From positions 369 through 64,368 of the forward strand of contig JAGGUN010000027.1 of NCBI GenBank assembly GCA_021158465.1: a DNA stretch of 64,000 nucleotides, written 5' to 3'. A model generated the notes under the pieces. That model was not told the DNA's origin. It made no database searches and saw only the letters and a program-made list of their open reading frames with translations. This DNA is from a bacterium (lineage in GTDB: Bacteria; UBP14; UBA6098; 4484-93). The position numbers and the translations under genes are program-made. Shown here in pieces: positions 23,274 through 39,667 of this stretch (within the stretch, counting starts at the first letter, position 1; every line of letters begins with the position of its first letter).

Positions 23274-24661
23274 TTCCTTTTGAGTTCATCAACTATCTTG
23301 TTGCATATCTTCCAGACATCACCGGCACCGAGCGTTATTATCATATCCCCCGGTCGTGCAAGATTGAGAACAAAGCTGGGGATACGGTCTCTGTCCTCGA
23401 TATAGTAGACCTCCCTGTGTCCAAACCTTCTTGCAGCATCCGCAATGAGCTCACCCGTTACATCTTCAATCGGCTCCTCACGGGCAGCGTAAACATTGGT
23501 GACAATAAGCACATCACTCTGAAAGAAGGACTTCCCGAACTCGTTGTAGAACATCTGCGTTCGGCTGTAGAGATGCGGTTGAAAGACCGCTATAACTCTA
23601 CGGTTGTATCCGAGCTTTGCAGCTTGAAGTGTTGCTCGTATCTCCGTGGGATGGTGAGCAAAATCATCTACAACAAGGACACCTCCTATTTCTCCCTTCA
23701 GCTGAAAACGCCTGTAAACCCCGGCAAACCTCCTGACCGCATTCCTTATATCATCAATTGGGACATCAAGCTCAACCCCTACACCAACCGCTGCCAAGAT
23801 GTTCTTTACATTGTGAAGTCCAAGTAGCCGGGACTCAAATCCTGGTATCCTTTTTCCCCTTAACTCGATGTCGAAACGGCTTCCCTTCTCGGAGAAAAAT
23901 AACCTCGTTGCCCTTATGTCTGCCTGTGTGGAAAGCCCGTAGGTTATGATGTTCTTCTCTATCTGCGGGATTATCTCCTGGATGCTTCTCTCATCGAGGC
24001 AAAGAATAACCGAGCCGTAGAACGGGACCTTATTCGCAAACTCGACGAACGCTGCCTTAAGCTCGTCGAAGCTACCGTAACATTCAAGATGCTCAGCCTC
24101 GAGGGTCGTTATAACAGCAATGGTAGGACTAAGCTTCAGGAATGAGCGGTCAAACTCATCCGCCTCGGCGACAAAGTAGTCAGACATTCCAAGCTTCGCA
24201 CCGGAACGGAGATTAACAACCCGCCCCCCAACAACTATCGTCGGGTCAAGCCCTCCCTCCACAAGTATCTCACCAACGATGGATGTTGTGGTGCTTTTAC
24301 CGTGTGTTCCAGCTATGGCTATCCCGTATCTCATCCGCATAAGCTCAGCAAGCATCTCCGAACGAGGGATAATGGGAATACCCTTCTGCTTTGCACAGAT
24401 AACCTCGATATTTGTATCCTTAACAGCAGACGAAACAATCACAACATCGACATTATCACCTACATTATCCGGAGAATGACCGATATGAACAGTCGCTCCC
24501 AAGCTTCTCAATCTCCGCGTCAGATCGGTCTCAACGAGGTCAGAACCGGTTATCCGGTAGCCCATATTCAGAAGTATCTCTGCTATACCACTCATTCCGC
24601 TCCCGCCTATACCGACAAAGTGGAGCCTCTTAACCTTCCCAAACGGTCGAGCCGTTGTCAT
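23261..24661 (-). CDS. murC: UDP-N-acetylmuramate--L-alanine ligase MurC
   Basis: VKRLHFVGIGGSGMSGIAEILLNMGYRITGSD and AIAGTHGKSTTTSIV. Confidence 0.9.
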   Translation of the reverse strand: MTTARPFGKVKRLHFVGIGGSGMSGIAEILLNMGYRITGSDLVETDLTRRLRSLGATVHIGHSPDNVGDNVDVVIVSSAVKDTNIEVICAKQKGIPIIPRSEMLAELMRMRYGIAIAGTHGKSTTTSIVGEILVEGGLDPTIVVGGRVVNLRSGAKLGMSDYFVAEADEFDRSFLKLSPTIAVITTLEAEHLECYGSFDELKAAFVEFANKVPFYGSVILCLDERSIQEIIPQIEKNIITYGLSTQADIRATRLFFSEKGSRFDIELRGKRIPGFESRLLGLHNVKNILAAVGVGVELDVPIDDIRNAVRRFAGVYRRFQLKGEIGGVLVVDDFAHHPTEIRATLQAAKLGYNRRVIAVFQPHLYSRTQMFYNEFGKSFFQSDVLIVTNVYAAREEPIEDVTGELIADAARRFGHREVYYIEDRDRIPSFVLNLARPGDMIITLGAGDVWKICNKIVDELKRKCRN

Positions 24662-25779
24662 TCTATCTCCTCAAGTATGATGTTTGCTATCCTTTCAGCC
24701 GCGTCAGGATGAGCAAAGCTGCGTATCGCCTCCGACATACTATCAAGCCTTTCCTTGTCAAATAAGATTTCTGCAACCTTCTCTTTAAGGAGCTGTGGGG
24801 TCAGTTCTTCATCCCGTATCACGACCGCCCCACCTGATGAGGCAATAGCCTGGGCATTGAGAAGCTGGTGTCCACCTGTCGCATAAGGGTAAGGCACAAG
24901 AACCGCAGGCTTTCCGAGAGACGCAACCTCTGCAAGCGTCAGGGCACCTGCACGGGCAACAACCAGATCCGAGGCAAAGATAAAATCAGCTATCCGCTCG
25001 CTGAAATCGAACATATAGACCGACGACCGCTCCTGCCTCGAGAGAGGAAGATACCGCTCAAGATCAGTTCTCCCCGTCTGCCAGATGAACTGCCACTCTG
25101 TCTTTCCAACAAGCTGTGATACAACCCGGTTCAAAGATGATGCACCCTGACTTCCGCCTGTTACAAGCACGGTCTTTTTCTGGGGTGAGAGTCCAACAGA
25201 CGCAAGTATCTCCTCACGAGTCCCGCTAATCTCCCTCTTCGGTATAGGGTTCCCAGTGAATACTAACCTGCCACTGAGATATTTCGCAGAGTCAGGAAAA
25301 CCGATAAAAGTCATCCTCGCAAGCCTCGAAATCACCCTTGACGCCACACCAGGAATACTGTTCTGCTCTTGAAGAAAAACAGGTCTTCCCATAAGATACC
25401 CCGCAAGCCCGATAGGCACGGATGGATACCCTCCAGCAAGCACAACAACAGAGACCCTAAAACTCCTCAGCTTTTCCATTGCAAAGAGAACAGATAACAT
25501 AAGCCGGAATGGGAAGAGCAAGGTATCGGTTCCAACGCTTCTCGGTAATGGGTAGGAAAGAACAGGGATATATCTGTATCCGTGAGCCTGAATCAGCCTT
25601 CTATCGATTGGACGAGAGGTGGCAAAGAACAATATTTCACACGATGGCGAAAGCCTGACCATCGCATCAGCAATAGCGATAGCCGGGACAAGATGTCCAC
25701 CTGTCCCACCAGCAGCAAAACCTGCTACCCTATGTCCTGAACCTGACATTCCCCTCCCTACGGGCAAGCACCGAGTCAT
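24658..25779 (-). CDS. murG: Undecaprenyldiphospho-muramoylpentapeptide beta-N-acetylglucosaminyltransferase MurG
   Basis: GGTGGHLVPAIAIADAM; GT28 architecture. Start is uncertain (M1 at 25779 or M11 at 25749). Confidence 0.9.
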   Translation of the reverse strand: MTRCLPVGRGMSGSGHRVAGFAAGGTGGHLVPAIAIADAMVRLSPSCEILFFATSRPIDRRLIQAHGYRYIPVLSYPLPRSVGTDTLLFPFRLMLSVLFAMEKLRSFRVSVVVLAGGYPSVPIGLAGYLMGRPVFLQEQNSIPGVASRVISRLARMTFIGFPDSAKYLSGRLVFTGNPIPKREISGTREEILASVGLSPQKKTVLVTGGSQGASSLNRVVSQLVGKTEWQFIWQTGRTDLERYLPLSRQERSSVYMFDFSERIADFIFASDLVVARAGALTLAEVASLGKPAVLVPYPYATGGHQLLNAQAIASSGGAVVIRDEELTPQLLKEKVAEILFDKERLDSMSEAIRSFAHPDAAERIANIILEEIE

Positions 25780-28217: not shown

Positions 28218-29306
28218 CTACCTCACCTTGAATGTCAGAACCGCTAAAAGTGCGAAGATCACACCAACAAGCCAGAACCTAACGACTATCTTGGACTCCG
28301 GAATACCCCTTAGCTCGTAGTGATGGTGTAGAGGAGCCATCAGAAAGACACGCTTCCCACCCGTGAGCTTGAAGTAAGTAACCTGTATAATAACAGATAA
28401 CGCCTCCACCACAAAAACCCCTCCTGCAACCGCAAATGCAAGCTCCTTCTTTAAGAGGACCGCCATAACCCCGAACGCTCCACCAAGAGCAAGCGCACCA
28501 GTATCTCCCATAAAAACACTGGCAGGGAACGAGTTATACCACAAAAAGCCCAAACAGGCACCAGTCAGGGCGCTGGCAAATACCGCAACCTCACCTGCTC
28601 CCGGCAGATATGTTATGTGCAGGTACCTGCTGACATCGGAACGACCACTTATGTAAGCTGCAACAATGAAAAAAGAGGATGTTACAGCAGCAAGACCAAC
28701 AGCGAGACCATCAAGACCATCGGTCAGGTTGATTGCATTAGTAGAACCTGTTACTATAAACATTACCCACAGGATATAAAAGATACCAAAGTTTATTATA
28801 TACTCCTTGAAGAAGAGGACCTCCGTCGATGTGCGCATCGCTGGGTACGGGGGGCGGAAATAAAGGAAAAGCCCAATCATAAGTCCGAGCAGCAACTGCC
28901 ACATCAGCTTCTGTTTTCCCAGAAGCCCATGCCCGTTCCTTCCGAGCACCTTCACATAGTCATCGAGGAAACCAAGGACCCCCATCCAGACTGTGGAGAT
29001 AAGAACTATCAATACATAGACATTGGTAACGTCTGCCCATAGGAGACTGGAAAGAATCGTCGAGAAGAGTATCACAAGTCCGCCCATCGTTGGTGTTCCT
29101 TTCTTGGAGACATGGGAAGGCGGTCCCTCAGGACGGATATTCTCGCCTATGTGCCTCTTCTTCAAGAACCTTACAATCTTTTTCCCAATCCAGAAACTCA
29201 ACACAAGAGCAGTTATAAGTGCCATTATCGTCCGGAAGGTTATGTAGCGGAAGATGTTGAATACAAACATCCTCTTATACAAAGGAAATAACAGAAAATA
29301 CAGCAC
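28218..29306 (-). CDS. mraY: Phospho-N-acetylmuramoyl-pentapeptide transferase MraY
   Basis: Conserved MraY blocks (NAINLTDGLDGLA, HHHYELRGIPESKIVVRFW). The N-terminus LYFLLFPLYKRMFVFNIFRYITFRT aligns with E. coli [26 protein letters not shown]. Start proposed at GTG 29306 (after AAGGGAAG); the ORF-track start at 29420 is a TTG and gives a non-homologous 38-aa extension. Confidence 0.88.
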   Translation of the reverse strand: MLYFLLFPLYKRMFVFNIFRYITFRTIMALITALVLSFWIGKKIVRFLKKRHIGENIRPEGPPSHVSKKGTPTMGGLVILFSTILSSLLWADVTNVYVLIVLISTVWMGVLGFLDDYVKVLGRNGHGLLGKQKLMWQLLLGLMIGLFLYFRPPYPAMRTSTEVLFFKEYIINFGIFYILWVMFIVTGSTNAINLTDGLDGLAVGLAAVTSSFFIVAAYISGRSDVSRYLHITYLPGAGEVAVFASALTGACLGFLWYNSFPASVFMGDTGALALGGAFGVMAVLLKKELAFAVAGGVFVVEALSVIIQVTYFKLTGGKRVFLMAPLHHHYELRGIPESKIVVRFWLVGVIFALLAVLTFKVR

Positions 29307-29608
29307 TATCTTCCCTTTCTCTTTGTCCTCTTCCCAGGAGGTATCTTCGCTGGAAGAAGGTTCTTCGTTCTGAACCGCTGACGAGCCACCTTCAACCCGG
29401 GCTTTGGCGAATAGAAACAAAACATCTTTGGATAGAGCGGCTTGAGATGCATTCCACCTTTGAGGAGGGATGCATCAAATATCTCCACACGGGACATAAG
29501 CATAACCTTTATTGCCACCCCTTTCTTGGGCATAGGAACACCTTCACACAACAAAGCTTCAGAAACAAGTATTACCAGAAGCAACACCAAGCCAACTACC
29601 TTTGCCAT
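29306..29608 (-). CDS. Candidate small (100 aa) membrane-anchored, highly basic protein inserted between murF and mraY; hypothetical
   Basis: ATG at 29608 preceded by GGTGGAG. N-terminal TM MAKVVGLVLLLVILVSEALLC followed by a K/R/P-rich tail. Its start overlaps the murF stop by 13 nt and its TAG stop overlaps the proposed mraY GTG start (ATAGTG), exactly filling an otherwise unusually long murF-mraY gap of 290 nt. No homology recognised. Confidence 0.3.
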   Translation of the reverse strand: MAKVVGLVLLLVILVSEALLCEGVPMPKKGVAIKVMLMSRVEIFDASLLKGGMHLKPLYPKMFCFYSPKPGLKVARQRFRTKNLLPAKIPPGKRTKRKGR

Positions 29609-30981
29609 AGCTCCACCAAGCCTTCTACTATCTTCTCCATTCTCATCGCCCTGGAACCCTTGATTAAAACGATGTCCTGAGGCATAACAAACTTTTTAAG
29701 GAAAATTGCAAGCTCCTTTTTCGTCTCAAAATGGACACATGGAATCCCGATAGAAGAAGCCTTCTCATAGGTCTTCCTGGTCCTCTCTCCCACAGTTGCA
29801 AGGAAATCAATCCCGACCGCACAAGAGTAATCAGCTATCTTCTCGTGGTAGCTTGCCTCATTCTCCCCCGTCTCGAGCATATCCCCAATGACCGCTATCC
29901 GTCGTCCCTTCGTCTCCATACTGGCAAGGGTCTCAAGAGCTTCCCGAACGGAGAGCGGATTAGCATTGTATGCATCATCGAGAACCATTATCTCACCTAT
30001 CGTCAACAGCCTCATCCTACCCGGAAGTGGCTCAACCCCCTCAATGGCTTGAACAACCTTTTCACAAGGAACCCGAAACAACCTCGCCACAGCGTATGCA
30101 CAGAGTGCATTGTACACATTAAACCTACCTGGTATCCCAAGAGATATCCTCTGACCGTCTACTCTGAAGCTCGCTTTACCTTCAGCATCAAGGGCAATAT
30201 CATCAGCACGATAGTCGGCAGAAGAGTTTATACCGTAAGTCACCGTATGCGATGCCGGCACTGGATTGAAACGAACAAGGAGCGGGTCATCAGCATTTAT
30301 TATCACATACGAACCAGGATTGAAATATTTGACAAGAGCGAACTTCTCCCTCGCCACATTTTCCAGACTACCAAGCCCTTCAAGGTGAACAGGAGCAATA
30401 TTTGTGAAGGCTACAACATCCGGTAGGATTATCCTTGCAAGCCGTTCCATCTCGCCAGGAGCTGATATGCCCGCCTCAAACACCGCAACATCATGCATCC
30501 GCTCAATCTGGAAAACAGACAAGGGAACACCAAGAAGGTTGTTATAGTTCTTAATACTCTCGACCACAAGCATATTCTTACCGAGTGATGACGCTATCAT
30601 TCGCCGGGCTGTCGTTTTGCCAACAGAACCCGTCACGCCAACTACAGGAAGGTCGAATCTTCGCCTATAAGACGAGGCGAGCTCACCAAGAGCCAAGACA
30701 GTATCCTTAACCACAATATACGGAACAGTCGCAGAATACTCGGGTTTATCGTGGAGAACGAGGAGAGCCGCTCCTTTGTATTCCGCATCCTGGGAAAACC
30801 TCTGTCCGTCTGTCCTTCTACCCTTCACAGCAAAGAACGCTTCACCTGGACTAATACTTCTCGAATCTATCGAGACCCCATAAATAACACCAGAGAGCCT
30901 ACCAGACACCTCGCCTTCCATCACAGCTACAGCATCCTTTATCTCTATTGGCTCCATTCCCCTCTCTGCTCCTTTGCCCAC
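29596..30981 (-). CDS. murF: UDP-N-acetylmuramoyl-tripeptide--D-alanyl-D-alanine ligase MurF
   Basis: Mur ligase motifs VVGVTGSVGKTTARRM, DDAYNANPLS. Confidence 0.85.
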   Translation of the reverse strand: MGKGAERGMEPIEIKDAVAVMEGEVSGRLSGVIYGVSIDSRSISPGEAFFAVKGRRTDGQRFSQDAEYKGAALLVLHDKPEYSATVPYIVVKDTVLALGELASSYRRRFDLPVVGVTGSVGKTTARRMIASSLGKNMLVVESIKNYNNLLGVPLSVFQIERMHDVAVFEAGISAPGEMERLARIILPDVVAFTNIAPVHLEGLGSLENVAREKFALVKYFNPGSYVIINADDPLLVRFNPVPASHTVTYGINSSADYRADDIALDAEGKASFRVDGQRISLGIPGRFNVYNALCAYAVARLFRVPCEKVVQAIEGVEPLPGRMRLLTIGEIMVLDDAYNANPLSVREALETLASMETKGRRIAVIGDMLETGENEASYHEKIADYSCAVGIDFLATVGERTRKTYEKASSIGIPCVHFETKKELAIFLKKFVMPQDIVLIKGSRAMRMEKIVEGLVELWQR

Positions 30982-34520: not shown

Positions 34521-34922
34521 CTAAATCTCCCAAATCTCCCTCAACTTCCTTCGCTCAAAGACAAAGCCCGCTATCTTCTTAAAGCTTAGCTTTATCCTGG
34601 CAAGAAGAGAAGGCTTACCCTTTGGAGGCGTCACCTCCCTCTCCCTGTAAACAATCTGGTCTATTCTCGCATCACTCAAACGGAAATTGTTCTCGGCGAT
34701 CCTCCTGATACGCTCCCTCGACTTGAGCCGCTCAACCGTCTCCTCAAGACTGGACCTAACCTTACAAAGCTTAGGCAAACGGCGGCTCCTACGAACAATT
34801 ACCTCCTCCTGGGAAAGAAGATACACACGCTCGGCAGTATACAGCAGTCCCACTATCACCAGAAGAAAAAAGTAGATGAAACTCCGAAGCAGCTTATTTA
34901 ATCCAGGGTAACTACACCTCAT
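34521..34922 (-). CDS. ftsL: Cell division protein FtsL-like (small bitopic protein)
   Basis: Position between rsmH and ftsI. Single TM FIYFFLLVIVGLLY followed by a coiled-coil-like periplasmic segment. Confidence 0.5.
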   Translation of the reverse strand: MRCSYPGLNKLLRSFIYFFLLVIVGLLYTAERVYLLSQEEVIVRRSRRLPKLCKVRSSLEETVERLKSRERIRRIAENNFRLSDARIDQIVYREREVTPPKGKPSLLARIKLSFKKIAGFVFERRKLREIWEI

Positions 34923-36659: not shown

Positions 36660-37229
36660 ATGGGAATGTTGGAGATACGTTGGCACGGGAGAGGTGGTCA
36701 GGGTGCAAAGACTGCATCCACCCTACTTGCTGCCGTTGCCATCGAGGAGGGGAAATATGGTCAAGGTTTCCCAGAATACGGTCCTGAAAGGGGTGGCGCT
36801 CCGATGAAGGGGTTCACAAGAATATCCGATGAACCTATAAGATACCATTGCGGCATCTATCATCCCGACATAGTGGTTGTGCTTGACCCAACCCTCTTGC
36901 TGCTCGTCAATGTTACTGAAGGGCTGAAGGAGGGCGGCTCTTTGCTTGTCAACACTCCCCTATCACCAGATGAGGTAAGAAAAAGGTATGGGGTGAAGGT
37001 GGAAAAACTTTACACAATCGATGCAACAAAGATATCTCTCGAGGAGATAGGTAAACCCATTCCCAATACACCGATGCTTGGTGCATTAATCAGGGCTATG
37101 GGTGGGATGATTTCATTAGAGACCGTTCTCAGTAATATAAGAAAGAAGTTTGCGAGGAAGTTCCCCGAGAAGGTTATTCAGGGGAACCTCAACGCCGTTA
37201 AGCGTGCTTACGAGGAGGTGAAGGGATAA
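36660..37229 (+). CDS. porG: Pyruvate/2-oxoacid:ferredoxin oxidoreductase, gamma subunit
   Basis: MLEIRWHGRGGQGAKTASTLLAAVAIEEGKYGQGFPEYGPERGGAPM matches POR gamma. Confidence 0.85.
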   Translation: MGMLEIRWHGRGGQGAKTASTLLAAVAIEEGKYGQGFPEYGPERGGAPMKGFTRISDEPIRYHCGIYHPDIVVVLDPTLLLLVNVTEGLKEGGSLLVNTPLSPDEVRKRYGVKVEKLYTIDATKISLEEIGKPIPNTPMLGALIRAMGGMISLETVLSNIRKKFARKFPEKVIQGNLNAVKRAYEEVKG

Positions 37230-37534
37230 TGGAAAACAAGAAAGGCTGGAAAGATGTTCCAATAGCGGGGCTCATTGTTGAACCGGGGAACTCCGTAGAA
37301 TATAAGACGGGAAGTTGGAGGAGCTACCGTCCTGTCTGGCATCCGGAAAACTGCATCCATTGTCTATTCTGCTTCTATTACTGTCCTGATTCGGCAATTA
37401 TGGTCAAGGATGGGAAGATGACAGGGATAAACTATGATTTCTGCAAGGGGTGTGGAATCTGCGTTACTGAGTGCCCTACAAAGCCAGAGAAGCGAGCACT
37501 TGAGCTAAAACTTGAATCGGAATTTATCGAATGA
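37229..37534 (+). CDS. porD: Pyruvate/2-oxoacid:ferredoxin oxidoreductase, delta subunit (2x[4Fe-4S] ferredoxin)
   Basis: Two cysteine motifs CIHCLFCFYYCP and CKGCGICVTECP. Confidence 0.85.
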   Translation: MENKKGWKDVPIAGLIVEPGNSVEYKTGSWRSYRPVWHPENCIHCLFCFYYCPDSAIMVKDGKMTGINYDFCKGCGICVTECPTKPEKRALELKLESEFIE

Positions 37535-37547
37535 AAGGAGAGAACAA

Positions 37548-38732
37548 GTGGCTAAAAATCTTTTAGCACTGACAGGGAACGATGCGGGGGCATACGCTGT
37601 AAAGCAGGTACAGCCAGATGTCGCCGCTGTCTTCCCAATTACCCCGCAGACAGAGCTTATGCACAAGGTAGCTGAATATGTTGCCGATGGGGTAATAGAC
37701 ACGGAGCTTATAACCGTTGAGTCGGAGCATTCTGCAATGAGTGCAACCGTCGGAGCAGCCGCCGGGGGAGCGAGAACATTCACAGCAACAGCAGCAAACG
37801 GGTTCGCTCTTATGTGGGAGATTGTCTACATCGCATCGTCGCTGAGACTACCCATCGTTATGGCTCTCATCAACAGGGCACTATCCGCTCCCATCAATAT
37901 CCATGGAGACCATTCCGACAGTATGGGCGGTCGAGATACCGGTTGGGTCCAACTTTACTCCGAGGGGGCACAGGAGGTCTACGATAACATCATTCAGGCA
38001 TACAGAATTGCCGAGCACAAGGATGTTCTGCTCCCTGTTATGGCAACATTCGACGGTTTCATCATCTCACACACAACAGAGATTGTGGACACATTAACCG
38101 ACGAGGTGGTAAGAAAATTTGTAGGCGAGTATAAGCCAGCATACAGTCTATTGGATATAGACCATCCCATAACAGTTGGACCACTCGATCTATACGACTG
38201 GTACTTCGAGCATAAGCGTAGCCAAATAGAAGCCACCAAACATGCCAAGAGAGTTATCCTCGAAGTGGCAGATGAGTTCTACAAGCTGACAGGAAGAAGA
38301 TATGGATACTTCGATGACTACAGGGTAGATGATGCGGAAGCGGTTATCGTCGTGCTTGGAAGCGCAGCAGGGACAACAAAATGCGTTGTCGACAAGATGA
38401 GAAAAGATGGGAAGAAGGTTGGTGTTCTGAAACTCCGCGTCTTCAGACCATTCCCAGCGGAAGAACTCGCCGATGCACTCAAAGATGTTCCCGTCGTTGG
38501 AGTGCTGGACAGAGCGGTATCGTTCGGGGGCTGGGGCGGTCCAGTGTTTAACGAACTGCGCTCCGCTATGTATAACCTGGAGAGGAGACCCGAGGTCGTC
38601 AACTACTATTACGGACTCGGTGGACGGGACATCAACACGGAACAGATAGAAGAGACATTCAACACACTCCTGGAAATCGCCGAAACAGGAAAGGTCAAAG
38701 AACGGTTCGGATACATCGGACTGAGAGAATAG
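37548..38732 (+). CDS. porA: Pyruvate/2-oxoacid:ferredoxin oxidoreductase, alpha subunit
   Basis: LTGNDAGAYAVKQV...VFPITPQTELMHKVAEYV...ESEHSAMSATVGAAAGGARTFTATAANG. Start at GTG 37548 with SD AAAGGAG (37534-37540); the ORF-track ATG at 37512 lies inside porD. Confidence 0.85.
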   Translation: MAKNLLALTGNDAGAYAVKQVQPDVAAVFPITPQTELMHKVAEYVADGVIDTELITVESEHSAMSATVGAAAGGARTFTATAANGFALMWEIVYIASSLRLPIVMALINRALSAPINIHGDHSDSMGGRDTGWVQLYSEGAQEVYDNIIQAYRIAEHKDVLLPVMATFDGFIISHTTEIVDTLTDEVVRKFVGEYKPAYSLLDIDHPITVGPLDLYDWYFEHKRSQIEATKHAKRVILEVADEFYKLTGRRYGYFDDYRVDDAEAVIVVLGSAAGTTKCVVDKMRKDGKKVGVLKLRVFRPFPAEELADALKDVPVVGVLDRAVSFGGWGGPVFNELRSAMYNLERRPEVVNYYYGLGGRDINTEQIEETFNTLLEIAETGKVKERFGYIGLRE

Positions 38733-38740
38733 GAGGGAAA

Positions 38741-39667
38741 ATGGCAATAAATATTAAGAAGCTCGCCAATGAGCCAGAACTCTTAGCAAGTGGTCATAGA
38801 GCCTGCGTTGGATGCACCGGGACAACAATCCTAAGACAGGTTCTAAGAGCATCTGGACCCAATACCGTAGTCTCCTTTGCAACAGGATGTATGGAGGTTG
38901 TAACAACTATATACCCATACACCGCCTGGCGCGTTCCATACATCCACAATGCGTTTGAGAACTCAGCAGCGACAATATCCGGCGTCGAAACCGCATACAG
39001 GGCACTACTGAAGAAAGGAAAGATAAACAAGAAGATAAACTTCATCGCATTCGGTGGAGACGGTGGAACATACGACATCGGACTGCAATCGCTGTCGGGC
39101 GCACTGGAACGAGGACACAATTTCCTGTACATCTGCTACGACAACGAGGCATATATGAACACCGGCATCCAGCGCTCAGGAGCAACACCGAGAGGAGCCG
39201 CAACATCAACAACACCAGCCGGAAAGGTTATCCCAGGTAAGCCACAGAAAAGAAAAGACCTAACAGCAATCATTGCAGGACATCATATCCCTTATGTTGC
39301 GCAGGCGTCTCCACACAATTTCATCGACCTGATGAAGAAGGTCCAGAAGGCGCTATCCATTGACGGACCCGCATTTATGAATGTTCTTATGCCGTGTCCT
39401 CGTGGATGGCGTTTCCCTGAGCCCGAAGGGATAGATATAGCTCGTCACGCTGTCGAGACCTGCTTCTGGCCGTTATACGAAGTAGAAAACGGAGTCTACA
39501 AGATAAACTACATCCCGAAGAAGAAAGAGCCTCTCGAGAACTGGCTCAAGCGCCAGGGACGGTTTAAACATCTATTCACAACCCAAAACAGGCATATCAT
39601 TGACGAGCTGCAGGCAGAAGTTGACAAGGACTGGGAAGAACTAAAAAATAGAGCAGGCGTGGAGTAA
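38741..39667 (+). CDS. porB: Pyruvate/2-oxoacid:ferredoxin oxidoreductase, beta subunit (TPP-binding)
   Basis: GHRACVGCTG..., TPP-binding motif FGGDGGTYDIGLQSLSGALERGHNFLYICYDNEAYMNTG. Confidence 0.85.
   Translation: MAINIKKLANEPELLASGHRACVGCTGTTILRQVLRASGPNTVVSFATGCMEVVTTIYPYTAWRVPYIHNAFENSAATISGVETAYRALLKKGKINKKINFIAFGGDGGTYDIGLQSLSGALERGHNFLYICYDNEAYMNTGIQRSGATPRGAATSTTPAGKVIPGKPQKRKDLTAIIAGHHIPYVAQASPHNFIDLMKKVQKALSIDGPAFMNVLMPCPRGWRFPEPEGIDIARHAVETCFWPLYEVENGVYKINYIPKKKEPLENWLKRQGRFKHLFTTQNRHIIDELQAEVDKDWEELKNRAGVE

What the first reader, a model, noticed from the sequence alone, without database searches (positions are those of the whole stretch)
29306..29608. Unannotated 100-aa basic membrane-protein ORF inserted exactly between murF and mraY in the dcw cluster
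The murF-mraY junction is normally overlapping or nearly contiguous. Here, judging the MraY N-terminus by homology (LYFLLFPLYKRMFVFNIF aligns with E. coli [19 protein letters not shown]) leaves a 290-nt gap, unusually long for a dcw cluster. A 100-codon ORF fills that gap exactly. Its ATG at 29608 has an SD (GGTGGAG) and overlaps the murF stop by 13 nt. Its TAG stop overlaps the homology-supported mraY GTG start (ATAGTG). This stop/start overlap, suggestive of translational coupling, is hard to explain by chance. The product has one N-terminal TM helix and a Lys/Arg/Pro-rich tail, and no family was recognised. A small conserved accessory gene inside the divisome/cell-wall operon would be new biology, although a chance ORF cannot be excluded.
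Basis: partly seen in the sequence, partly recalled or inferred. Interest (0 to 1): 0.55.

Follow-up and report, generated by a model that had tools for sequence, protein, structure and literature searches.

The report
Orphan small gene between murF and mraY
A real, strongly conserved 100-codon gene for a small, very basic protein with a hydrophobic N-terminus sits exactly between two cell-wall genes that are normally contiguous, but it is known from only two closely related uncultured species and its function is still a guess.

Summary
The ORF at 29306..29608 (-) is there as described. It overlaps the murF stop by 13 nt, and its TAG shares one base with the mraY GTG start.

It is a real gene. 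The only diverged relative, contig L001 (GenBank names it Zixibacteria bacterium 4484_93; about 85% DNA identity), has the same 100-codon ORF in the same place with no indels. Differences fall 9/10/32 by codon position. dN/dS is 0.12 overall and 0.03 for residues 25-88, lower than for mraY. Codon usage matches the genome, and no other frame is open in both species.

It is not unannotated: GenBank lists both copies as hypothetical proteins.

It is an orphan. Exhaustive protein and DNA searches, Pfam, NCBIfam, PHROGs, PDB, phage and plasmid collections found nothing else. The nearest MraY relatives (59% identity) have murF and mraY 0-8 nt apart, so this is a lineage-specific insertion.

AlphaFold gave no usable fold, and no docking onto MraY.

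Best reading, by inference only: a membrane-anchored or exported basic protein, co-translated with MurF and MraY, acting as an accessory to membrane-step peptidoglycan synthesis or division. Modest interest.

The parts
29306..29608 (-). 100-codon ORF, stop included, encoding the orphan small basic protein (GenBank MCD6098021.1)
   Evidence: ORF listing. An identical protein occurs on 19 contigs. An orthologue lies at the same position in L001. dN/dS is 0.116. In-frame codon log-likelihood is 0.144 per codon, within the range of this genome's genes.
29611..29617 (-). Shine-Dalgarno-like GGTGGAG, 2 nt upstream of the ORF's ATG, lying inside the murF coding sequence
   Evidence: Read from the sequence. 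GTGGAG followed by CT and ATG is conserved in L001. Other genes of the operon carry GGAG-type motifs, mostly with 3-7 nt spacing.
29546..29599 (-). Codons 4-21: N-terminal hydrophobic segment (VVGLVLLLVILVSEALLC), either a signal peptide or a membrane anchor
   Evidence: Kyte-Doolittle 2.4-2.5. AlphaFold predicts a helix at 2-19. Substitutions against L001 are conservative and hydrophobic; dN/dS for residues 1-24 is 0.44.
29345..29536 (-). Codons 25-88: strongly constrained basic core (PMPKKGV...NLLPAK)
   Evidence: 60 of 64 residues identical to L001, with 22 synonymous and 4 non-synonymous differences; dN/dS 0.033.
29309..29344 (-). Codons 89-100: Lys/Arg/Pro/Gly tail. Its purine-rich DNA also lies just upstream of the mraY start.
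   Evidence: 8 of 12 residues identical, with basic character kept; dN/dS 0.22. The sequence upstream of the mraY GTG is shown.
29304..29308 (-). TAGTG: the ORF stop overlaps the mraY GTG start by one base
   Evidence: The same TAGTG is at L001:6280-6284.
29596..30981 (-). murF, the upstream neighbour. Its last 13 nt overlap the ORF. Its true start is probably the ATG at codon 9 (about 30957).
   Evidence: Pfam Mur_ligase, Mur_ligase_M and Mur_ligase_C. The L001 MurF starts at MEPLEIK.
28218..29306 (-). mraY, the downstream neighbour: 362 aa from the GTG
   Evidence: Pfam Glycos_transf_4 and MraY_sig1. The NCBI model is 362 aa, and homologues cover residues 1-362.

Best explanation
A lineage-specific orphan gene was inserted into the otherwise contiguous murF-mraY junction of the dcw operon and is kept by strong purifying selection.

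Shown:
- It is transcriptionally embedded: no promoter-like site on its own strand and no terminator-like site inside.
- Its start overlaps the end of murF, and its stop overlaps the start of mraY, in both species that have it. Ribosomes finishing murF can therefore start on it, and ribosomes finishing it can start on mraY.

Inferred from sequence:
- The product is an envelope-targeted protein. Its N-terminal hydrophobic segment takes it to the cytoplasmic membrane, where it stays as an anchor or is cleaved as a signal peptide.
- A 64-residue, very basic, highly constrained core follows, then a Lys/Arg tail.

Inferred from position only:
- It most likely acts at the membrane as a small accessory of the membrane step of peptidoglycan precursor synthesis or of division. 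It could bind or modulate MraY, or link it to a partner. It is less likely to do something unrelated.
For: Reality as a gene:
- The ORF is open, 100 codons long and free of indels in both species.
- 51 nucleotide differences fall 9/10/32 by codon position (p=1.6e-5).
- Nei-Gojobori dN/dS is 0.116 overall and 0.033 for residues 25-88, against 0.076-0.24 for the flanking dcw genes.
- All other frames have stops in at least one species, or dN/dS of about 1 or more.
- Two further differences in L002 are both synonymous.
- Codon usage and GC by codon position match the genome.

Embedding and coupling:
- There is a 13-nt (window) or 22-nt (L001) overlap with murF, from a conserved ATG preceded by GTGGAG.
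- TAGTG at the mraY start occurs in both species.
- No promoter-like site on the gene's strand and no terminator-like site on either strand; the one promoter-like match is on the opposite strand and within shuffle expectation.
- There is no RNA structure signal (z = -0.25 and -0.31) and no Rfam hit.

Insertion:
- The closest other MraY loci (59% identity) have murF-mraY gaps of 0-8 nt.
- 49 of 56 loci from other phyla have gaps of 37 nt or less.

Envelope targeting: hydrophobic residues 4-21, predicted helix 2-19, and 20 K+R against 3 D+E after residue 21.
Against: - Nothing links the protein to MraY, MurF or the divisome except its position.
- There is no homologue outside the two species, and no family, solved-structure, phage or plasmid match.
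- AlphaFold gives pLDDT 43 for the protein alone. In an artificial fusion to MraY the ORF part scores 23-34 while MraY scores about 90, so no docking was predicted. With only two sequences this is uninformative rather than negative.
- Topology is unresolved. The n-h-c layout with acidic residues after Cys21 looks like a Sec signal. The very basic C-terminal part would instead be cytoplasmic by the positive-inside rule.
- Unrelated genes have also landed at this junction in other lineages (L053, L068), so the site tolerates hitch-hikers.
- The selection evidence comes from a single species pair.
Confidence: 0.45

Rival explanations
1. Functional hitch-hiker. This would be a real, selected small envelope protein whose function has nothing to do with peptidoglycan synthesis or division. 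It landed in, or arose at, a tolerated site and simply uses the strong constitutive expression of the dcw operon.
For: - The same junction carries unrelated inserted ORFs in two of 56 other lineages: an ORF of about 270 aa with a signal-peptide-like N-terminus in L053, and two ORFs of unassigned function in L068.
- No homology or predicted contact ties the protein to cell-wall enzymes.
Against: - The junctions are exact at both ends with no spacer, and they are kept in both species. Any change in its translation would therefore affect mraY.
- Constraint on the core is stronger than on MraY itself.
- Neither point excludes an unrelated function.
Confidence: 0.3
2. Cleaved secreted protein. Residues 1-21 would be a Sec signal peptide removed after Cys21 or Ala18. 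The 79-aa basic mature protein would act in the periplasm, for example by binding peptidoglycan or an anionic envelope polymer, rather than at the membrane.
For: From the sequence:
- an n-region MAK;
- a 12-residue h-region;
- a helix-breaking S-E (window) or P-G (L001) at positions 16-17;
- small or allowed residues at -3/-1 (L19/C21 in both species);
- acidic residues at +1/+2 and no positive charge until +7.

The signal-like segment evolves faster than the rest (dN/dS 0.44 against 0.03), as signal peptides typically do.
Against: - No signal-peptide predictor could be run.
- There is no A-x-A site conserved in both species.
- The lipobox rule is not met, since position -1 is Leu.
- A domain with 20 K+R in 79 residues is atypical for exported proteins and fits the positive-inside rule for a cytoplasmic location.
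Confidence: 0.2
3. Not a separate gene. It would be a chance ORF in a spacer, an N-terminal extension of MraY, a frameshifted C-terminal extension of MurF, an assembly artefact, or a conserved RNA element.
For: - In the window alone the mraY frame is open up to a TTG at 29420.
- The ORF lies in the -1 frame relative to murF.
- Gene callers disagree on the mraY start: 335, 350 or 362 aa.
Against: - The codon-position pattern and dN/dS fit only the ORF's frame.
- In L001 the mraY frame upstream of the GTG has a stop and no start codon.
- The conserved MraY N-terminal residues begin at the GTG.
- No slippery sequence is conserved at the end of murF: window CAA AGG TAG, L001 CAA AAG CGA.
- The same sequence occurs on 19 independently assembled contigs from ENA, JGI and Logan.
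- RNA folding z-scores are about -0.3 and there is no Rfam hit.
Confidence: 0.03

Closest known systems
FtsL / FtsB (DivIC): small bitopic divisome proteins encoded in or near dcw clusters
   Same: About 100 aa, with a single N-terminal hydrophobic segment. Encoded inside the dcw operon with overlapping or abutting gene junctions. Sequences diverge quickly between lineages.
   Different: There is no Pfam DivIC/FtsL match even at E<=1, and no long helix or coiled coil beyond the hydrophobic segment in the low-confidence model. This operon already has a 133-aa gene at the ftsL position, between rsmH and ftsI. The position between murF and mraY is not one where such genes are known.
Phage phiX174 lysis protein E, a 91-aa single-pass protein that binds and inhibits MraY (PMC11812184)
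   Same: By my own knowledge of protein E: similar size, an N-terminal transmembrane helix followed by a basic C-terminal part. The only functional clue for the ORF here is likewise an association with MraY, through its position.
   Different: There is no sequence relationship: PHROGs found nothing and tblastn against 50,697 phage records found nothing. The Arg-Trp-x-x-Trp motif of protein E (PMC11812184) is absent from the sequence. This is a chromosomal gene with host codon usage under purifying selection, so a lethal inhibitor is unlikely. Any resemblance is in architecture only.
Unrelated genes inserted at the murF-mraY junction in other lineages (L053, an Alphaproteobacteria MAG; L068, a Cytophagaceae MAG)
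   Same: A rare break of an otherwise contiguous junction by extra coding sequence, seen in 2 of 56 loci with gaps over 200 nt.
   Different: Those inserts are longer (760-850 nt), leave spacers and show no similarity to this ORF (tblastn E>0.5). Here the insert abuts both neighbours exactly.
Taxonomically restricted (orphan) genes in general
   Same: No homologue in 1.84 billion representative proteins. It is confined to one narrow clade, and is short, basic and predicted with low confidence.
   Different: Unlike many orphans, it is under very strong constraint (core dN/dS 0.03) and sits in one of the most conserved operons in bacteria.

Membership tests
FtsL/FtsB (DivIC) divisome proteins | Match to the FtsL or DivIC/FtsB Pfam models | tested here: not met
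   hmmscan against Pfam-A at E<=1 returned no family.
FtsL/FtsB (DivIC) divisome proteins | A long periplasmic helix or coiled coil directly after the transmembrane segment | tested here: inconclusive
   AlphaFold shows only short strands after helix 2-19, but pLDDT is 43, so the model is unreliable.
phiX174 protein E-like MraY inhibitors | Sequence homology to protein E families | tested here: not met
   No PHROGs family at E<=10. No tblastn match in the phage collection at E<=10.
phiX174 protein E-like MraY inhibitors | Physical binding to MraY | not testable with these tools
   A single-chain AlphaFold fusion of the ORF to MraY left the ORF at pLDDT 23-34. With two sequences and no multimer model, this neither shows nor excludes binding.
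Bacterial lipoproteins | Lipobox [LVI][ASTVI][GAS]C at the end of the signal peptide | tested here: not met
   Both species read A-L-L-C (residues 18-21), so position -1 is Leu rather than Gly, Ala or Ser. The lipobox pattern itself is from my own knowledge.
Sec-type cleavable signal peptide | Positive n-region, h-region of 7-15 residues, polar c-region with small residues at -3 and -1 | tested here: inconclusive
   The n-region MAK, the 12-residue h-region and the S-E or P-G breaker are present. L19/C21 is an allowed but uncommon -3/-1 pair, and S-E-A is not conserved (P-G-A in L001). No dedicated predictor was available.
Type IV pilin-like / DUF2509 (NF008569) | Score above the curated cut-off, and the prepilin motif G|(F/M)xxxE | tested here: not met
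   12.8 bits against a cut-off of 159, E=0.09, for one of the two proteins only. There is no Glu five residues after Gly6 in either species.
N-terminal extension of MraY, or C-terminal extension of MurF | A continuous open frame with the neighbouring gene, conserved across species | tested here: not met
   The mraY frame has a stop 21 codons upstream of the GTG in L001. The murF frame stops at 29596 in the window and at L001:6001. The ORF is in a different frame from both.
Structured RNA element or leader | An Rfam match, or folding energy beyond shuffled controls | tested here: not met
   No Rfam hit at E<=1. z = -0.25 (window) and -0.31 (L001).

The most novel reading that the evidence does not exclude
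The protein is a previously unrecognised, clade-specific small subunit or regulator of the lipid I synthase MraY, or of the hand-over from MurF to MraY. It would be a host-encoded counterpart to the way phage single-pass proteins dock onto MraY, born recently by insertion into the murF-mraY junction and already indispensable.
Probability: 0.15. Interest if true: 0.6.

Novelty: new variant of a known kind. Interest (0 to 1): 0.33.

Why it matters
The murF-mraY junction is among the most stable gene adjacencies in bacteria. A gene that entered it, became translationally interlocked with both neighbours and is now more constrained than MraY itself is a clean natural example of an orphan gene being fixed inside an essential operon.

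If the protein does touch MraY or the divisome, it would show that the membrane step of cell-wall precursor synthesis can acquire lineage-specific partners. It could also point to a new handle on MraY, which is an antibiotic target.

The practical reach is limited. The gene is known from only two uncultured species, one of them assembled from hydrothermal sediment by my own recollection, and no function can yet be assigned.

Tried and rejected
1. Distant homologues.
- The word-indexed search found only the protein itself and P0002.
- The exhaustive HMM search of 1.84 billion representatives found only P0002.
- The back-translated DNA scan of JGI metagenome contigs found only L097, which is the same species as L001.
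- tblastn against phages and plasmids found nothing.
- tblastn against 83 dcw loci of other phyla (L014-L096) found nothing below E=0.5.

2. Family and structure libraries. Pfam, NCBIfam, PHROGs and PDB sequences gave nothing usable. The only hit was DUF2509 at E=0.09, attributed to the hydrophobic helix.

3. Structure. AlphaFold on the two-sequence alignment gave pLDDT 43, so no fold search was run, because it would be meaningless.

4. Interaction. An artificial ORF-MraY single-chain prediction, with 55 MraY homologues and P0002 in the alignment, folded MraY well but left the ORF unplaced.

5. Origin by local duplication.
- The match LKPLYPKMFCF against MraY LFPLYKRMFVF is not significant: 229 of 2000 shuffles score as well.
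- There is no DNA or protein similarity to the rest of the window.
- A 20-nt direct repeat between the murF 3' end and the ORF 5' end (16/20) is seen only in the window. By my own count from the sequence it is 8/20 in L001. It is therefore not evidence of an ancestral duplication.

6. RNA element. No Rfam hit and no folding signal.

7. Programmed -1 frameshift fusing MurF to the ORF. No slippery site is conserved between the two species.

8. Taxonomic placement.
- A literature search for the MAG name returned noise.
Full report
**1. What is in the sequence**

On the minus strand the window carries a complete, canonical dcw cluster. The gene order is:
- mraZ, rsmH, a 133-aa gene at the ftsL position, ftsI, murE, murF;
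- then the ORF;
- then mraY, murD, ftsW, murG, murC, murB, ftsQ, ftsA, ftsZ.

The ORF is the only non-canonical member.
- ATG lies at 29608 and TAG at 29308-29306, giving 100 codons.
- It overlaps the murF stop (29596) by 13 nt.
- Its TAG shares one base with a GTG (29306-29304) that is in frame with mraY.
- GGTGGAG sits 2 nt before the ATG. Genes of this operon do use GGAG-type ribosome-binding motifs, usually with 3-7 nt spacing, so this one is plausible but short-spaced.

**2. Where MraY starts**

Three lines of evidence place the start at the GTG.
- NCBI's own model for this genome is 362 aa from the GTG (P0003).
- The 120 best homologues are 361-375 aa long and cover 100% of that model.
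- Residues 3, 5, 6, 8 and 9 lie upstream of the ATG starts that other gene callers picked (335 or 350 aa). They are at least 90% conserved among 55 homologues.

In the window the mraY frame happens to stay open up to a TTG at 29420. In the relative L001 that frame has a stop 21 codons upstream of the GTG and no possible start in between. The region is therefore not MraY coding sequence, and the 289-nt distance from murF to mraY is real.

**3. Is such a gap unusual?**

Yes. I fetched 80 mraY loci from other phyla, and 56 of them have murF directly upstream.
- 49 have a distance of 37 nt or less from the murF stop to the position aligned with MraY residue 1; most are -1 to +3.
- Only two exceed 200 nt: L053 (848 nt) and L068 (760 nt).
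- Those two hold unrelated ORFs.
- The other 24 loci, 23 of them labelled Bacteroidota-group MAGs or isolates plus one Cellvibrionales MAG, have no murF there at all.

**4. Is it a gene?**

The identical protein occurs on 19 near-identical contigs from ENA, JGI and Logan assemblies, so it is not an assembly accident.

One diverged relative exists, on contigs L001, L002, L003 and L097. These are about 85% identical to the window in DNA. GenBank names that genome 'candidate division Zixibacteria bacterium 4484_93'.
- There the ORF lies in the same place.
- JGI called 93 codons, but an in-frame ATG preceded by GTGGAG lies 21 nt upstream. This gives MAKAIGLM..., again 100 codons with no indel, and that is how GenBank annotates it (OQX89518.1).
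- The TAGTG junction with mraY is identical. The overlap with murF is 22 nt.

Between the two species there are 51 nucleotide differences in the 303-nt ORF.
- They fall 9, 10 and 32 by codon position (binomial p=1.6e-5).
- Nei-Gojobori dN/dS is 0.116 (33 synonymous against 18 non-synonymous differences; p=7e-10 against neutrality).
- For comparison, murF is 0.127, murE 0.140, murD 0.146, ftsW 0.238 and mraY 0.076.

| Part of the protein | Residues | Identity | dN/dS |
|---|---|---|---|
| Hydrophobic N-terminus | 1-24 | 15/24, changes conservative | 0.44 |
| Core | 25-88 | 60/64 | 0.033 |
| Basic tail | 89-100 | 8/12 | 0.22 |

- Every other frame either has stops in one or both species or shows dN/dS of about 1 or more.
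- Two extra differences in L002 are both synonymous.
- The in-frame codon log-likelihood is 0.144 per codon. This genome's genes average 0.18 +/- 0.05, and off-frame windows fall below -0.25 at the 95th percentile.
- GC by codon position (0.52/0.38/0.51) matches the genome (0.54/0.41/0.50).

A chance ORF, an RNA element and an extension of either neighbour are all excluded (Rfam none, folding z about -0.3). No promoter-like site on the gene's strand and no terminator-like site on either strand lies inside.

**5. How widely is it found?**

Only in those two species. None of the following found another copy.
- The word-indexed search of 5.8 billion proteins.
- The exhaustive HMM search of 1.84 billion representatives.
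- A back-translated DNA scan of metagenome contigs.
- tblastn against the phage and plasmid collections.

MraY shows how isolated the clade is. After the 92%-identical L001 protein, the next best of 7,818 hits is 59% identical; the named ones among these hits are mostly labelled Zixibacteria, one Fidelibacterota and a few simply 'bacterium'. Three of those nearest loci (L094-L096) have murF and mraY 8, 0 and 6 nt apart with nothing between. The ORF is therefore a clade-specific insertion into an ancestrally contiguous junction. Its native codon usage argues against a very recent foreign origin. Its source is unknown.

**6. What the protein looks like**

- Mass 11.1 kDa, pI 10.8-11.6, 21 K+R against 4 D+E, and 9-10 Pro.
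- Residues 1-21 read MAK, then 12 hydrophobic residues, then S-E (window) or P-G (L001), then A-L-L-C.
- Cys21 and Cys64 are conserved.
- The core, PMPKKGV(A/S)I(K/R)VMLMSRVEIFDASLLKGGMHLKPLYP(K/R)MFCFYSPKPGL(K/R)VARQRFRTKNLLPAK, is almost invariant.
- AlphaFold gives helix 2-19 and a few short strands, but at pLDDT 43, so no fold can be named.
- Pfam, NCBIfam, PHROGs and PDB sequences give nothing. The one weak hit (DUF2509, 12.8 bits against a cut-off of 159) is attributable to the hydrophobic helix.

Topology is unresolved, because two rules of thumb (both from general knowledge) point in opposite directions.
- The n-h-c layout, the helix breaker at positions 16-17 and the acidic residues just after Cys21 look like a Sec signal or an N-in signal anchor. 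That would place the C-terminus outside the cytoplasm.
- The very high K/R content after the segment would place the C-terminus in the cytoplasm by the positive-inside rule. To my knowledge phiX174 protein E adopts that orientation.

The canonical lipobox is not met, because position -1 is Leu.

**7. How it most likely works**

Shown: the gene is co-transcribed with its neighbours, and its translation is physically interlocked with both murF and mraY. This geometry is kept across about 15% DNA divergence.

Inferred: the product goes to the cytoplasmic membrane or beyond through its N-terminal segment, and the constrained basic core is the working part.

Inferred from position alone: it serves the membrane step of peptidoglycan precursor synthesis or division, most simply by binding MraY or a partner of MraY.

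I give about 0.95 to 'real selected gene' and about 0.8 to 'envelope-targeted'. I give about 0.3-0.35 to a cell-wall or division role and about 0.15 to a direct MraY partner.

The one test I could run was an ORF-MraY single-chain AlphaFold prediction. It left the ORF unplaced (pLDDT 23-34) next to a well-folded MraY (about 90). With two sequences this is uninformative.

The main rival is a selected but unrelated hitch-hiker. Other lineages show that this junction can accept unrelated genes.

**8. Comparison with what is known**

- In architecture it resembles the small bitopic proteins of dcw clusters (FtsL, FtsB). More loosely, it resembles single-pass proteins that bind MraY, such as phiX174 protein E, which targets MraY near helix 9 (PMC11812184).
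- Membership in either family fails on every testable criterion: no model match, no phage homologue, and none of protein E's Arg-Trp-x-x-Trp motif.
- The dcw cluster is described as up to 17 genes with highly conserved synteny (PMC8871954), and none of them lies between murF and mraY.

**9. Verdict**

- The claim 'unannotated' is wrong, since GenBank has both copies as hypothetical proteins.
- 'Conserved accessory gene of the divisome' overstates what is shown. Conservation is limited to one narrow clade and the function is unknown.
- It is a tidy case of an orphan gene fixed inside an essential operon.
- Interest is modest (0.33). It would rise to about 0.6 if a link to MraY were demonstrated.

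Noticed in passing
window 29580-29599 and 29609-29628 (minus strand): A 20-nt direct repeat, 16/20 identical and 29 nt apart. The murF 3' end (GTAGAAGGCTTGGTGGAGCT, reading VEGLVEL) matches the ORF 5' end (GTAGTTGGCTTGGTGTTGCT, reading VVGLVLL), each read in codon phase in its own frame. By my own count from the sequence, the corresponding L001 segments match only 8/20. It is either chance or a window-lineage event, not evidence of how the ORF arose.
   Followed up: partly
window 29446-29476: A 14-nt inverted repeat (86% complementary, 3-nt loop) lies inside the most conserved part of the ORF (FDASLLKGGMHL). By my reading of the sequence it is partly kept in L001 through G-U pairs. Folding of the whole region shows no signal above shuffled controls.
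   Followed up: partly
window 28218-29306 (mraY); loci L004-L013: Different pipelines call three different mraY starts for the same sequence: 335, 350 and 362 aa. Only the 362-aa GTG model keeps the conserved N-terminal residues.
   Followed up: yes
window 30957-30981 (murF 5' end): The longest murF ORF starts at GTG 30981 (MGKGAERGMEPIEIK). The L001 orthologue starts at the Met aligned with codon 9 (MEPLEIK), which has a GGAG-rich upstream sequence. The true start is therefore probably the ATG near 30957, and the overlap with murE would be about 13 nt rather than 37.
   Followed up: partly
L008:9860-10949 (corresponds to window 24660-25749, murG): On one JGI contig of the same population, murG is called as two genes (151 and 218 aa), and the contig has a gap in its alignment to the window. 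This is either a frameshifted strain variant or an assembly error.
   Followed up: no
window 34521-34922 (minus strand): A 133-aa gene sits at the ftsL position between rsmH and ftsI and has no Pfam hit on record. It is conserved in position in L001 (133 aa).
   Followed up: no
L053:3152-4001 and L068:3240-4001: Two unrelated lineages also carry inserts between murF and mraY. An Alphaproteobacteria MAG has an ORF of about 270 aa with a signal-peptide-like N-terminus. A Cytophagaceae MAG has two ORFs of unassigned function. Neither resembles the ORF studied here.
   Followed up: partly
window 36660-39608 (plus strand): A four-gene 2-oxoacid:ferredoxin oxidoreductase operon (POR gamma, 4Fe-4S ferredoxin, POR_N/PFOR_II, TPP_enzyme_C) is transcribed divergently from mraZ. 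This is consistent with an anaerobic lifestyle.
   Followed up: no
whole window: No Rfam family reaches its gathering score anywhere in the 64 kb, so there is no rRNA or riboswitch in this stretch.
   Followed up: no
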